Shown piece by piece: positions 13,787-16,700 of a stretch of 64,000 nt of DNA (the stretch's first letter is position 1; the number at the start of each line of letters is the position of its first letter). Made by a program: the position numbers. Origin of the DNA: Escherichia coli (lineage in GTDB: Bacteria > Pseudomonadota > Gammaproteobacteria > Enterobacterales > Enterobacteriaceae); the NCBI RefSeq assembly GCF_003991155.1, contig NZ_CP031293.1. One strand, 5' to 3'.

Positions 13787-16700
13787 TCACTTCCGGGTTA
13801 ACAATACGCTGTAGCGTGGAAAAGAGATCGGTTGCCAGCATCCCGCGCGTTCCAAAACGCGCCGCCAGTACGTCAGCTGCCGCACCGTGCGCGACACAGC
13901 CTGCACAGGCGGCATCATACGGCGACAGTTTTTGCCCAAGCAATGCGCCAATAATACCAGAGAGCACATCGCCCATGCCGCCGCTCGCCATGCCTGCATT
14001 TCCGGCATCAATAATGCTTAAAGCGTCAGGATGGGCGGCGACCACGGTTCCGGCACCTTTCAGCACCGCTACGCCGCCATAACGTTGTACCAGACGTTTG
14101 GCGCAATGTAAGCGGTCACTTTCAATTTCTGCTACGGAACAGCCTAACAACCGTGCGGCCTCGCCAGGATGCGGCGTGATCACGCGATTGTGACGCTTAT
14201 CGGGATTGATTGCCAGCAGGTTCAATGCATCGGCATCCCACAACATCGGTTTGCGAAAATTCTCAACTTTTTGCAGGGCTTTTTTCCCCCACTCTTGCTG
14301 GCCCAGACCGGGACCAATCACCACCACATCGGCCCATTCCAGGCTTTCGGTAAGAGAGTCCATAGTCAGTTCATGCACCATCAATTCTGGTCGTGCAGTC
14401 AGCAGCGGCGCAATGTTCTCACTGCGGGTCAGTACTCGGACTAAACCAGCACCAGCACGCAGCGCCGCTTCCCCCGTCATACGAATAGCCCCCGCCGTGC
14501 CGTGATCGCCACCGATAATCACCAGCCGCCCGTGATCGCCTTTATGCGAAGTCGGGCGACGCGGTTTCAGCCAGTGAGAAAGTTGTTCTGCCGAAAACCG
14601 CTGAATTTTCGTCTCCTGACCTGCCAGCCAGCTATCCAGCCCCAGTGAGTCAAAATGCAGTTGTCCTGTAACATCCCGCGCTTTTCCAGTGAGCAAGCCT
14701 GGTTTCAGCGCAATAAAAGTGATGGTGTGATCGGCGTTAATCACCGCGCCTGGCGTAGCGCCAGTTTCAGCCAGCAGGCCGGAAGGGATATCAACCGCCA
14801 CAATCGGCGCAGGATGGGAATTAGCGTGGTCGATTAACTGGCTAATGGATTCACGAGGCGCTTGCTGCAAGCCGGTGCCGAGCAGCGCATCAACAATCAG
14901 ATCTACCGATTCGGGCCAGACAATATTCGAAGCATGGATCTCGCCTCCCGCGTTTAACCATGCTTCGCGTGCCAGCGCGGCCTCTTCCGGCAACGGTTTG
15001 TCACTTTCCTGGGCCAGCAGCGTGACATCAATACCGACCGCTTTGGCCAGTCGCGCGACCACGTAGCCATCGCCGCCGTTATTACCATGACCGCACAGCA
15101 CCAGCCAGTGGCGGGCGTCAGGATAAGCCGAACGACACACCTGGAATGCGGCTTCGCCAGCGCGAAGCATCAGCTCATAGAGTGTGAGCCCCAGCGCATC
15201 TGCCGCCTCGCGTTCTCCGCGGCGGATATCGTCGGCGTACCAGACGGTGTGTGGTATACTTATGGGGTTTTTCTTCATTGTATGGTCCGTCATGTCAGAG
15301 CCCCTCGATCTCAATCAGTTAGCGCAAAAAATTAAACAGTGGGGGCTGGAACTGGGCTTTCAGCAGGTAGGTATTACCGATACCGATCTCAGCGCGTCCG
15401 AGCCCAAACTGCAAGCATGGCTGGACAAACAATACCACGGCGAAATGGACTGGATGGCGCGTCACGGTATGCTGCGTGCTCGTCCTCACGAATTATTGCC
15501 CGGTACGCTGCGCGTGATCAGCGTGCGGATGAATTACCTTCCTGCTAACGCCGCATTTGCCAGCACGCTGAAAAATCCCAAACTCGGCTATGTTAGCCGT
15601 TATGCGCTGGGCCGTGACTATCACAAGCTTCTGCGCAACCGACTCAAAAAGCTGGGCGAGATGATTCAGCAACATTGTGTTTCGCTGAATTTTAGACCGT
15701 TTGTCGATTCTGCGCCTATTCTCGAGCGCCCGTTAGCTGAAAAAGCAGGTCTTGGCTGGACAGGTAAGCACTCACTTATCCTCAATCGCGAGGCCGGTTC
15801 GTTCTTTTTTTTAGGCGAATTGCTGGTCGATATTCCGCTGCCCGTGGATCAACCAGTCGAGGAAGGATGCGGTAAATGCGTGGCCTGTATGACGATTTGC
15901 CCGACCGGTGCCATCGTCGAGCCATATACCGTCGATGCTCGCCGCTGTATCTCTTATCTCACCATCGAACTGGAAGGGGCGATCCCGGAAGAGTTGCGAC
16001 CGTTAATGGGAAACCGTATTTACGGTTGCGATGACTGCCAGCTTATCTGCCCGTGGAATCGCTATTCGCAACTCACTACAGAAGACGATTTCAGCCCGCG
16101 TAAGCCGCTACACGCACCGGAACTCATTGAGTTATTCGCCTGGAGTGAAGAGAAGTTTTTAAAAGTCACGGAAGGTTCGGCGATTCGCCGTATAGGTCAC
16201 CTGCGTTGGCTGCGTAATATTGCCGTAGCCTTAGGCAATGCGCCCTGGGATGAAACGATTCTGGCGGCGCTGGAAAGTCGTAAAGGTGAGCACCCACTTC
16301 TTGATGAGCACATAGCGTGGGCGATTGCGCAGCAAATCGAGAGGCGAAATGCGTGCGTGGTCGAAGTGCAATTACCGAAAAAACAGCGTCTGGTTCGGGT
16401 GATTGAAAAAGGGTTACCGCGTGACGCCTGATTCATCCACAGCTTGTGAATAAAAATAAAAACGCATTGCAATTCAAGCCGGAAAAAATCGTCAAGTGAT
16501 CGATACGACAAAACGAAATCTTAATTTTTAACTTATCTATCAATAGGTTAAAAAAATACTATTCACCGTGCGAAGTTTCTTTGAAATTAAGATTACGGCC
16601 TGAGGCTGTGGATAACTCTGTTTACAAGAGTTTGTCAGAGACAACAAAAACCAGCAATACCGCATCGCGTCGCTGTGGATATTTTATTGAGAGAAGAATT

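What the first reader, a model, noticed from the sequence alone, without database searches (positions are those of the whole stretch)
15278..15292. Back-to-back start codons of nnr and queG only 13 bp apart
The divergent genes nnr (minus, ATG 15278) and queG (plus, ATG 15292) leave no room for conventional intergenic promoters, so each promoter and RBS must lie inside the other gene's 5' coding sequence. Ribosome or RNA polymerase occupancy on one gene could interfere with initiation on the other.
Basis: seen in the sequence. Interest (0 to 1): 0.25.

Follow-up and report, generated by a model that had tools for sequence, protein, structure and literature searches.

The report
Head-to-head nnr/queG genes with embedded promoters
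Two E. coli housekeeping genes that point away from each other share their start codons (CATG), and each has its promoter inside the other gene, so their messenger RNAs overlap by about 414 bases; the layout is real and conserved, but this gene pair is already listed in published transcriptome studies.

Summary
The window is E. coli. But 15278 is codon 6 of nnr, not its start.

RefSeq and K-12 annotate nnr from the ATG at 15293. That ATG is present in 30/30 Enterobacterales and has the strong Shine-Dalgarno (GAGGGG, -7.2 kcal/mol). Met6 is kept in only 9/30. The two coding sequences therefore overlap by 2 nt in a palindromic CATG, with no intergenic DNA.

- **queG promoter:** an extended -10 element (TGgTATACT, 15252-15260) built from nnr codons 12-14. 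Its synonymous positions are frozen, and it survives where nnr is no longer adjacent.
- **nnr-operon promoter:** -10 TAAAAT at 15694-15689, inside queG codons 133-135. It depends on the rare Arg codon AGA, found in 19/19 Enterobacteriaceae.

Published K-12 operon ends (Conway 2014) convert to window ~15268 and ~15681. The ~414-nt overlap gives RNase III-processed dsRNA, and queG-nnr is listed among 16 divergent excludons.

Mutual interference is plausible but undemonstrated. This is already known; the codon-level promoter embedding is new detail. Interest is low to moderate.

The parts
13746..15293 (-). nnr (yjeF) CDS, 515 aa, starting MTDHTMKKNP; first gene of the nnr-tsaE-amiB-mutL-miaA-hfq... 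operon
   Evidence: RefSeq/K-12 annotation. Pfam YjeF_N covers residues 40-199 and Carb_kinase covers 258-496. The ATG at 15293 is conserved in 30/30 Enterobacterales.
15292..16431 (+). queG (yjeS) CDS, 379 aa, starting MSEPLD
   Evidence: Annotation and Pfam QueG_DUF1730 + Fer4_16. ATG is at this position in all 34 Enterobacterales loci.
15291..15294 (.). Palindromic CATG shared by the two start codons (nnr ATG = 15293-15291 on the minus strand; queG ATG = 15292-15294)
   Evidence: Read directly from the sequence. The annotated CDSs overlap by 2 nt. Nnr residue 1 aligns at this site in 29 of the 33 full-length Enterobacterales loci, counting L019, whose reading frame is broken after 21 codons.
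15276..15278 (-).
   Evidence: Met in only 9/30 Enterobacterales. Weak SD, -3.2 kcal/mol.
15252..15260 (+). queG promoter: extended -10 element TGgTATACT, formed by nnr codons 12-14 (AGT-ATA-CCA on the minus strand). The -35 position reads TCGGCG (3/6).
   Evidence: - TGnTAnnnT is present in 34/34 Enterobacterales about 40 nt upstream of the queG ATG, and in 57/76 gammaproteobacterial loci, against ~4% expected by chance.
- Codon use is frozen: AGT 29/29, ATA 18/18, CCA 28/28. Elsewhere in the same genes these codons make up 18%, 6% and 12% of Ser, Ile and Pro codons.
- The amino acid at codon 14 varies (P/A/T/S, all NCA), but the TG is kept.
- The motif persists in non-coding DNA in Pectobacterium and Photorhabdus.
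- Another laboratory deleted exactly this stretch to make a 'delta-PqueG' strain (PMC10950094).
15268..15291 (+). queG 5'UTR (~24 nt, U-rich, no real SD), running from the published operon end to the ATG
   Evidence: The Conway 2014 overlap end 4392114 (U00096.2), taken from PMC7373196 suppl., converts to window 15268. This is 8 nt after the -10 hexamer. The conversion was checked against a p19 read and against K-12, which has no indels here. The anti-SD duplex is only -2.2 kcal/mol.
15301..15306 (-). nnr Shine-Dalgarno GAGGGG, the complement of queG codons 4-5 (CCC CTC), 7 nt upstream of the 15293 ATG
   Evidence: sequence. Duplex of -7.2 kcal/mol, in the top 6.5% of all ATGs in the window. 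CCCCTC or CCTCTC is kept in nearly all loci that have the adjacent nnr start.
15689..15694 (-). -10 hexamer TAAAAT of the primary nnr-operon promoter, inside queG codons 133-135 (AAT TTT AGA); C at -13; no recognisable -35
   Evidence: - It lies 7-8 nt upstream of the published promoter position 4391701 (U00096.2), which converts to window 15681.
- GGTCTAAAATTCA(G/A) is kept in the window and in L003-L020.
- It requires the rare Arg codon AGA, found in 19/19 Enterobacteriaceae against 2.8% of the other Arg codons in the same genes.
- There is a local peak of synonymous conservation at queG codons 126-140.
- Outside the family the codon is CGN, which gives GAAAAT.
15268..15681 (.). ~414-bp zone transcribed on both strands: the nnr 5'UTR plus nnr codons 1-9 on the minus strand, and the queG 5'UTR plus queG codons 1-130 on the plus strand
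   Evidence: Three datasets, all U00096.2 coordinates from PMC7373196 suppl.: Conway overlap 4391701-4392114 (413 bp, 'Divergent'), Lybecker dsRNA MS-212 4391717-4392100, and p19-captured RNase III dsRNA clusters 4391754-4392109. queG-nnr is also listed as a divergent excludon (PMC12288877).

Best explanation
nnr and queG form a head-to-head gene pair with no intergenic DNA. Their start codons interlock in the palindrome CATG (nnr ATG 15293-15291, queG ATG 15292-15294).

queG is transcribed from a -35-independent extended -10 promoter (TGgTATACT, 15252-15260) written into nnr codons 12-14. Its TSS is near 15268, giving a ~24-nt leader without a real Shine-Dalgarno.

The nnr-tsaE-amiB-mutL-miaA-hfq operon is transcribed from a promoter ~390 nt inside queG (-10 TAAAAT 15694-15689, TSS near 15681). 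Its 5'UTR is therefore the exact antisense of the first ~130 codons of queG, and its SD (GAGGGG) is the complement of queG codons 4-5.

The two mRNAs share a ~414-nt perfectly complementary 5' region that covers both translation-initiation regions. In vivo they form dsRNA that RNase III cuts. The pair behaves as a 'face-to-face' divergent promoter pair, also called a divergent excludon.

Shown:
- the sequence geometry;
- DNA-level selection on both -10 elements;
- published transcript ends and dsRNA.

Inferred:
- that the two transcription units antagonise each other, through head-on RNAP collision or occlusion of PqueG by nnr-operon transcription, and through pairing and RNase III cleavage that masks both ribosome-binding sites;
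- that nnr translation starts at 15293.
For: Geometry and annotation.

nnr start at 15293:
- ATG in 30/30 Enterobacterales, against Met6 in 9/30.
- Nnr residue 1 aligns at the junction in 29 of the 33 full-length Enterobacterales loci, counting L019, whose frame is broken after 21 codons.
- SD duplex -7.2 against -3.2 kcal/mol.

queG promoter:
- The motif is in 34/34 Enterobacterales about 40 nt upstream of the queG ATG, and in 57/76 gammaproteobacterial loci against ~4% by chance.
- Synonymous positions of nnr codons 12-14 are frozen, using otherwise uncommon codons (AGT 29/29, ATA 18/18, CCA 28/28; background 18%, 6%, 12%). Neighbouring codons vary freely.
- Amino-acid replacements keep the TG.
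- The motif is retained in non-coding DNA where nnr has moved away.
- The published operon end converts to 15268, 8 nt after the hexamer.
- The published 'delta-PqueG' allele removes this element.

nnr promoter:
- The published P position converts to 15681.
- TAAAAT is kept in 19/19 Enterobacteriaceae through the rare codon AGA (2.8% background).
- Synonymous conservation peaks at queG codons 1-10 (0.76 against a mean of 0.48) and at codons 126-140 (~0.6).

Overlapping transcripts and dsRNA:
- Conway, Lybecker and p19 data.
- queG-nnr is one of 16 divergent excludons, defined as present in >=50% of 58 MG1655 transcriptomes.
- K-12 and the window strain have no indels and identical key elements across 15150-15760.
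Against: - I could not read any single-nucleotide TSS data (dRNA-seq, Cappable-seq) for this interval. The transcript ends come from RNA-seq-based operon calls quoted second-hand in another paper's supplement.
- Neither promoter has a recognisable -35, and the consensus scan found no promoter on either strand. The extended -10 explains this for queG, but not for nnr.
- The nnr -10 is conserved only within Enterobacteriaceae. In Erwiniaceae, Yersiniaceae and others the nnr promoter must lie elsewhere, so the 414-nt overlap may be family-specific.
- The C at -1 of the queG ATG (which makes CATG) is also present in lineages without an adjacent nnr, so CATG on its own does not prove the nnr start.
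- I found no N-terminal proteomics or initiation-profiling data.
- No experiment shows that either gene's expression changes when the other's promoter is altered. Antisense read-through from glyVXY/yjeV may also contribute to the dsRNA.
Confidence: 0.8

Rival explanations
1. One reading: nnr translation starts at the ATG at 15278 (MKKNP...). That leaves a 13-nt untranslated spacer, and the upstream ATG at 15293 is an annotation artefact created by the queG start codon.
For: - An ATG exists at 15278 in E. coli, E. albertii and Citrobacter.
- Two of the three bases of the 15293 ATG are fixed by the queG start codon. The third base (C at queG -1) is also C in lineages that lack an adjacent nnr, so conservation of that ATG is not independent evidence.
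- The N-terminal 39 residues lie outside the Pfam domain.
Against: - Codon 6 is Met in only 9/30 Enterobacterales. It is CTG, ATT, GAG or AAG in many species. These have no other start codon upstream of the translated, amino-acid-conserved S/T-V-W at codons 16-18.
- Its SD is weak, -3.2 against -7.2 kcal/mol.
- The GAGGGG/GAGAGG SD, correctly spaced for 15293, is kept wherever nnr abuts queG.
- Both PGAP and the curated K-12 record use 15293.
Confidence: 0.1
2. The architecture is real but regulatorily inert. The promoters ended up inside the neighbouring genes through genome compaction and N-terminal extension of nnr. The overlapping transcripts and dsRNA are a tolerated by-product that RNase III clears, with no selected reciprocal control of queG and the nnr operon.
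For: - No study I found reports reciprocal expression of this pair. ExcludonFinder highlights other pairs instead.
- The nnr -10 inside queG is confined to Enterobacteriaceae, whereas the close head-to-head arrangement is much older. The long overlap is therefore not needed for the arrangement to persist.
- Outside the two promoter and ribosome-binding-site patches, synonymous conservation in the overlap (queG codons 16-125) is at background, 0.36-0.55 against a mean of 0.48.
- The operon has seven further promoters, so downstream genes do not depend on this one.
Against: - The dsRNA cluster is among the 20 most abundant protein-coding clusters in stationary phase, so pairing is quantitatively substantial.
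- The duplex covers both translation-initiation regions.
- The AGA-dependent -10 is invariant across 19 Enterobacteriaceae species, which shows selection for this promoter position.

None of this demonstrates a regulatory consequence.
Confidence: 0.4
3. The conserved TGGTAtACT reflects selection on the Nnr protein (a functional S-I/L-P-H N-terminal motif), not a queG promoter. queG would then be transcribed from elsewhere.
For: The peptide S-(I/L)-P-(H/Q) is widespread at the Nnr N-terminus in gammaproteobacteria.
Against: - Protein-level selection does not explain the complete freezing of synonymous sites on rare codons.
- Residue 14 changes to A, T or S, always as NCA, which keeps the TG.
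- The motif is retained at the same distance from queG in non-coding DNA in Pectobacterium, Photorhabdus and Xenorhabdus, and in species with no adjacent nnr.
- The published queG operon end lies 8 nt downstream of the hexamer.
Confidence: 0.04

Closest known systems
Divergent excludons / 5'-overlapping divergent operons (Listeria excludon concept; E. coli lists in Conway 2014, Lybecker 2014, PMC7373196, and ExcludonFinder PMC12288877)
   Same: Neighbouring genes on opposite strands whose transcripts overlap at their 5' ends, giving RNase III-processed dsRNA. queG-nnr is itself listed: it is one of 16 divergent excludons in MG1655, and it is p19 cluster S-361, Lybecker MS-212.
   Different: Classical excludons pair genes of opposing function and show reciprocal expression. 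For queG-nnr no reciprocal expression has been shown. Here the intergenic distance is -2 nt (the excludon mean in E. coli is 95 nt), and both promoters lie entirely inside coding sequence.
Extended -10 (TGn) sigma-70 promoters
   Same: TG at -15/-14, a TAnnnT hexamer (TATACT), a poor -35 (TCGGCG, 3/6), and a transcript end 8 nt after the hexamer.
   Different: The element is written in the codons of a divergent gene (Ser-Ile-Pro of Nnr). It has constrained that protein's N-terminal tail across Enterobacterales, Vibrionales, Alteromonadales and Aeromonadales. Promoter activity itself was not assayed here.
Other tight divergent pairs in the same window, e.g. epmB-efp (41-nt spacer), also on the divergent-excludon list
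   Same: A divergent housekeeping pair with a very short spacer and overlapping transcription.
   Different: epmB-efp keeps a 41-nt intergenic region. nnr-queG has none and shares start-codon bases.
Head-to-head (divergent) overlapping protein-coding genes in prokaryotes
   Same: The 5' ends of two CDSs on opposite strands share nucleotides (definition in PMC3887535).
   Different: The overlap is only 2 nt, both within the start codons, so there is no dual coding of amino acids. The unusual part is the regulatory overlap rather than the coding overlap.

Membership tests
Divergent excludon (5'-overlapping divergent transcription units) | Adjacent genes on opposite strands, oriented head to head | tested here: met
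   nnr on the minus strand at 13746-15293 and queG on the plus strand at 15292-16431.
Divergent excludon (5'-overlapping divergent transcription units) | The transcripts of the two genes overlap in their 5' regions | not testable with these tools
   I had no RNA data of my own. Published data report a 413-bp overlap at 4391701-4392114 (Conway), as tabulated in PMC7373196 suppl., and the pair is in the ExcludonFinder list. My sequence analysis places conserved -10 elements 7-8 nt upstream of both published ends.
Divergent excludon (5'-overlapping divergent transcription units) | dsRNA formed by the overlap and processed by RNase III | not testable with these tools
   Published: Lybecker dsRNA MS-212, and p19-captured ~21-nt duplexes across 4391754-4392109, including reads that span the nnr SD and the CATG.
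Divergent excludon (5'-overlapping divergent transcription units) | Reciprocal (mutually exclusive) expression of the two partners | not tested
   I found no data for this pair. The ExcludonFinder text highlights other pairs.
Extended -10 sigma-70 promoter (for queG) | TG dinucleotide one base upstream of a TAnnnT -10 hexamer | tested here: met
   TGgTATACT at 15252-15260. Present in 34/34 Enterobacterales and 57/76 gammaproteobacterial loci, against ~4% by chance.
Extended -10 sigma-70 promoter (for queG) | Weak or absent -35 hexamer | tested here: met
   The -35 position reads TCGGCG (3/6). The consensus scan, which needs both hexamers, finds nothing.
Extended -10 sigma-70 promoter (for queG) | Transcription starts 6-8 nt downstream of the hexamer, and activity depends on the element | not testable with these tools
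   The published operon end converts to 15268, 8 nt after T15260. I found no mutational or single-nucleotide TSS data. The 'delta-PqueG' strain of PMC10950094 deletes the element, but queG mRNA was not reported in the passages I read.
Head-to-head overlapping protein-coding genes | Both CDSs share nucleotides at their 5' ends | tested here: met
   Met under the annotated starts, and supported by conservation and SD strength. The experimental N-terminus of Nnr was not available.
Nnr (bifunctional NAD(P)HX epimerase/dehydratase) and QueG (epoxyqueuosine reductase) | Diagnostic domain architecture | tested here: met
   YjeF_N (E 2.4e-45) + Carb_kinase (E 5.2e-87) for Nnr. QueG_DUF1730 (E 2e-24) + Fer4_16 (E 1.1e-22) for QueG. 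The closest solved Nnr is Thermotoga TM0922.

The most novel reading that the evidence does not exclude
The CATG junction with its two reciprocally embedded promoters may be a selected bidirectional switch. In that reading, transcription of the nnr-tsaE-amiB-mutL-miaA-hfq operon from inside queG and transcription of queG from inside nnr antagonise each other, through head-on RNAP traffic plus an RNase III-sensitive duplex that masks both ribosome-binding sites. This would couple queuosine maturation inversely to the operon. The N-terminal S-(I/L)-P of Nnr would then be a 'promoter-encoded' peptide, dictated for the whole history of several gammaproteobacterial orders by the neighbour's -10 element rather than by Nnr function.
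Probability: 0.25. Interest if true: 0.5.

Novelty: already known. Interest (0 to 1): 0.28.

Why it matters
This is a clean, well-conserved example of regulatory signals written into coding sequence. One promoter fixes three codons of the neighbouring protein across several orders of gammaproteobacteria. The other depends on a rare AGA codon in one family.

Both promoters can be destroyed by purely synonymous changes. The locus would therefore be a convenient natural test bed for measuring how much head-on transcription and mRNA:mRNA pairing really cost in a divergent excludon. It sits at the head of the operon that Conway 2014 called the most complex in their E. coli K-12 dataset (14 genes, including mutL, miaA and hfq).

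For annotation, it shows that the 2-nt start-start overlap in RefSeq is probably genuine rather than an error. It does not reveal a new kind of system.

Tried and rejected
- **Consensus promoter and terminator scans** of 14900-15700 and 15600-16000 found nothing on either strand. This is uninformative, because both promoters lack a -35.
- **Single-nucleotide TSS data could not be obtained.**
  - Thomason 2015 is not held.
  - The Conway 2014 supplement is not held.
  - The Cappable-seq GTF is truncated when stored, so I did not search it.
  - The Kim 2012 and Ramachandran 2012 supplements have no entry for these genes.
  - The ExcludonFinder supplement is not held.
- **A hairpin sequestering the nnr SD** (GAGGGG pairing with upstream GCCCCC) appeared in local folds. 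I rejected it. The partner is just the Trp-Gly codons TGG GGN with a freely varying third base, and CCTCTC variants show no compensating change.
- **A proximal nnr promoter in the highly conserved first 45 nt of queG** (TAATTT / TAATAT) is not conserved as a -10 across genera.
- **A 60-aa antisense ORF starting 6 nt after the nnr TSS** (15675-15493): its start codon is ATG, GTG or CTG in different genera, tracking queG codons, so it is probably spurious.
- **Sigma-E or sigma-32 readings of the nnr -10 region:** no suitably spaced -35. The C at -13 hints at sigma-S but was not tested.
- **Rfam:** no family in the overlap.
- **PDB:** no E. coli Nnr structure that would show the N-terminus.
- **Literature searches:** one search on overlapping start codons returned nothing relevant. 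The overlapping-gene paper I read gave definitions but no counts.
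Full report
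**What is in the sequence.**
The window is Escherichia coli. It is 100% identical over the tested kilobase to strain 2016C-3878, and the interval is present in 5,425 of 5,426 complete genomes. The + strand reads 15270 tttcttCATtgtatggtccgtCATGtcagag.

The minus-strand frame stays open further upstream and contains another ATG at 15293-15291, giving MTDHTMKKNP....

Both PGAP (strain record) and the curated K-12 record (b4167, 515 aa) start nnr at that upstream ATG. The annotated CDSs therefore overlap by 2 nt inside the palindrome CATG. Gene identities are confirmed by Pfam.

**Which nnr start is real.**
I fetched 80 queG loci from one genome per species. In 29 of the 33 full-length Enterobacterales loci, Nnr residue 1 aligns exactly at the CATG junction; in one of these, L019, the reading frame is broken after 21 codons. 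The families covered are Enterobacteriaceae, Erwiniaceae, Yersiniaceae, Budviciaceae and Hafniaceae.

In the 30 usable nnr sequences:
- Codon 1 is ATG in 30/30.
Elsewhere it is GTG, TTG, ATT, CTG, GAG or AAG.
- Codons 16-18 (S/T-V-W) are conserved as amino acids while their synonymous sites vary. They are therefore translated, and in most species the junction ATG is the only start codon upstream of them.

The Shine-Dalgarno argument agrees. GAGGGG lies 7 nt before 15293 and gives -7.2 kcal/mol against the anti-SD, in the top 6.5% of all ATGs in the window. The value is -3.2 for 15278.

There is one caveat. Two bases of that ATG belong to the queG start codon, and the third (C at queG -1) is also C in lineages without an adjacent nnr. 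The ATG alone is therefore not independent evidence. I put the 15293 start at roughly 0.85-0.9.

The queG start is solid. ATG is present in all 34 Enterobacterales loci, and homology runs from residue 1-6 across gammaproteobacteria.

**The queG promoter sits in nnr codons 12-14.**
The upstream alignment shows a sharply conserved TGTGGTAtACT about 40 nt before the queG ATG. This is an extended -10 element: TG, one base, then TATACT, at window 15252-15260. The -35 position is poor (TCGGCG).

On the nnr strand the element is Ser12-Ile/Leu13-Pro14. Four lines of evidence point to DNA-level selection rather than protein-level selection:
- **Frozen codon choice.** AGT is used in 29/29, ATA in 18/18 Ile (TTA where the residue is Leu), and CCA in 28/28. 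Elsewhere in the same genes these codons make up 18%, 6% and 12% of their families. Flanking codons 16-45 have codon identities of only 0.2-0.5.
- **Amino-acid changes that keep the TG.** In more distant gammaproteobacteria, residue 14 changes among P, A, T and S, always as NCA.
- **Survival in non-coding DNA.** The motif sits at the same distance from queG in Pectobacterium and Photorhabdus, where other genes now lie upstream. It is also present in Pseudoalteromonas, Rheinheimera and Shewanella loci with no nnr nearby.
- **Frequency.** TGnTAnnnT occurs in the expected zone in 57/76 loci, against ~4% by chance.

**The nnr-operon promoter sits ~390 nt inside queG.**
A synonymous-site profile of queG across 35 Enterobacterales has a mean codon identity of 0.48. 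It peaks at 0.76 for codons 1-10 and has a second peak of ~0.6 at codons 126-140.

At that second peak the minus strand reads GGTCTAAAATTCAG. This is kept in the window and in 18 other Enterobacteriaceae species, one of them ending in A rather than G. The -10 hexamer TAAAAT (15694-15689) needs the rare Arg codon AGA at queG codon 135. AGA is used in 19/19 at that codon, against 2.8% of all other Arg codons in the same genes. Outside the family the codon is CGN and the hexamer is lost.

**Published transcript data fit these positions.**
The supplement of PMC7373196 tabulates the following for this locus (U00096.2 coordinates):
- A Conway 2014 '+' operon with promoter at 4391701 and terminator at 4408049.
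- A 413-bp 'Divergent' overlap at 4391701-4392114.
- The Lybecker dsRNA MS-212 at 4391717-4392100, labelled 'queG,yjeF'.
- p19-captured RNase III duplex clusters at 4391754-4392109. These rank among the top 20 protein-coding clusters in stationary phase.

I calibrated the coordinate conversion on a p19 read spanning the CATG. K-12 and the window strain have no indels and identical key elements across 15150-15760. The conversion places the queG transcript end at window 15268, 8 nt after the TATACT hexamer, and the nnr-operon start at 15681, 8 nt after TAAAAT.

Three further published points:
- Conway 2014 describes the yjeF...rlmB operon as the most complex in their dataset: 14 genes, 8 promoters, 23 transcription units.
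- ExcludonFinder (PMC12288877) lists queG-nnr among 16 divergent excludons of MG1655, its core set being excludons seen in >=50% of 58 transcriptomes. It also lists yjeV-queG-nnr as a non-contiguous operon.
- A replication study built a 'delta-PqueG' allele by deleting precisely the nnr codons that carry the extended -10.

**Mechanism.**
Shown: the two coding sequences interlock, each ribosome-binding site lies in the other gene, and each -10 lies in the other gene and is under DNA-level selection. The nnr SD is the complement of queG codons 4-5, and the queG leader is the complement of nnr codons 1-9. The 5' ~414 nt of the two mRNAs are perfect complements that form RNase III-cut dsRNA in vivo.

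Inferred:
- RNAP from the nnr promoter must run head-on through the queG transcription unit and over PqueG, and the reverse also holds. Collision and promoter occlusion are therefore expected.
- The duplex would mask both initiation regions.

Whether any of this changes expression is untested. The 'tolerated by-product' rival remains serious (about 0.4), for three reasons:
- Synonymous conservation in the body of the overlap is at background.
- The nnr -10 is family-restricted.
- No reciprocal expression has been reported for this pair.

queG itself has essentially no SD (-2.2 kcal/mol) and a U-rich 24-nt leader, which is consistent with low expression.

**How unusual it is.**
Among the seven divergent pairs annotated in 49 kb of this window, the spacers are 339, 336, 324, 275, 94, 41 and -2 nt. 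E. coli excludon pairs average 95 nt. The close head-to-head arrangement is old. Spacers or overlaps of a few to ~25 nt are seen in Aliidiomarina, Thalassotalea, Pseudoalteromonas and Grimontia. Tolumonas has the same CATG overlap.

**Verdict.**
The core interpretation, that promoters and ribosome-binding sites sit inside the partner gene, is supported. The interference idea is plausible for RNAP and RNA pairing but unproven.

The overlap in annotation, the overlapping transcripts, the dsRNA and the 'excludon' label are all already published for this exact pair, so the finding is already known. What this analysis adds is the codon-level demonstration that both -10 elements are maintained against codon preference, and that both can be killed by synonymous mutations. 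Interest is about 0.28.

Noticed in passing
This includes synonymous sites of both frames (nnr codons 2-4: ACG 23/24, GAC 24/25, CAT 27/27; queG codons 1-10 codon identity 0.76). The conservation extends ~25 nt beyond the nnr SD. It disappears in lineages where nnr is not adjacent. A dual translation-initiation-region constraint is the likely cause, but that is not demonstrated.
   Followed up: partly
window 15742-15786 (queG codons 151-165): There is a third local peak of synonymous conservation (~0.6 against a mean of 0.48) over W-T-G-K-H-S-L-I-L. On the minus strand the sequence AAGTGAGTGCTTACC is conserved even in Yersinia and Budvicia. It lies 50-100 nt upstream of the nnr-operon TSS. It could be an upstream promoter or regulator site, or just codon bias.
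   Followed up: no
window 15493-15675 (- strand): A 60-aa ORF antisense to queG begins only 6 nt downstream of the nnr-operon TSS, which would make it nearly leaderless. Its start codon is ATG, GTG or CTG in different genera, tracking the queG codons, so it is probably not a gene.
   Followed up: partly
window 16414-16467 (-), 16432-16700, and tRNA-Gly x3 at 16701-16999 (-): The 17-aa yjeV ORF overlaps the 3' end of queG convergently. The DNA between queG and the three tandem tRNA-Gly(GCC) genes is the datA (DnaA-titrating) locus. Published work shows glyVXY read-through transcription across it, and lists yjeV-queG as a convergent excludon and yjeV-queG-nnr as a non-contiguous operon. queG can therefore be covered by antisense RNA from both ends.
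   Followed up: partly
window 16724-16862 (-): A sub-threshold Rfam hit to YrlA (Y RNA-like; 40 bits against a gathering score of 69) spans two of the tandem tRNA-Gly genes. It is most likely an artefact of the tRNA-like module in that model.
   Followed up: no
window 13746-13774: tsaE (13313-13774, -) overlaps the 3' end of nnr by 29 nt on the same strand. nnr is therefore overlapped at both ends.
   Followed up: no
window 35591-35633: efp (-) and epmB (+) are divergent with only a 41-nt spacer. The pair is also on the published list of 16 divergent excludons, so this 64-kb window holds two of them.
   Followed up: no
window ~32347-33480: ampC (BlaEC class C beta-lactamase) is annotated as a pseudogene with an internal stop in the strain that matches this window.
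   Followed up: no
window 48348-48423 (tRNA-Phe, +) and beyond to ~64000: A tyrosine integrase sits next to tRNA-Phe. It is followed by IS fragments, a second copy of aspartate ammonia-lyase and C4-dicarboxylate transporter genes, hypT, a dgoRKAD operon and a GroEL fragment. This looks like a genomic island inserted at the tRNA-Phe gene.
   Followed up: no
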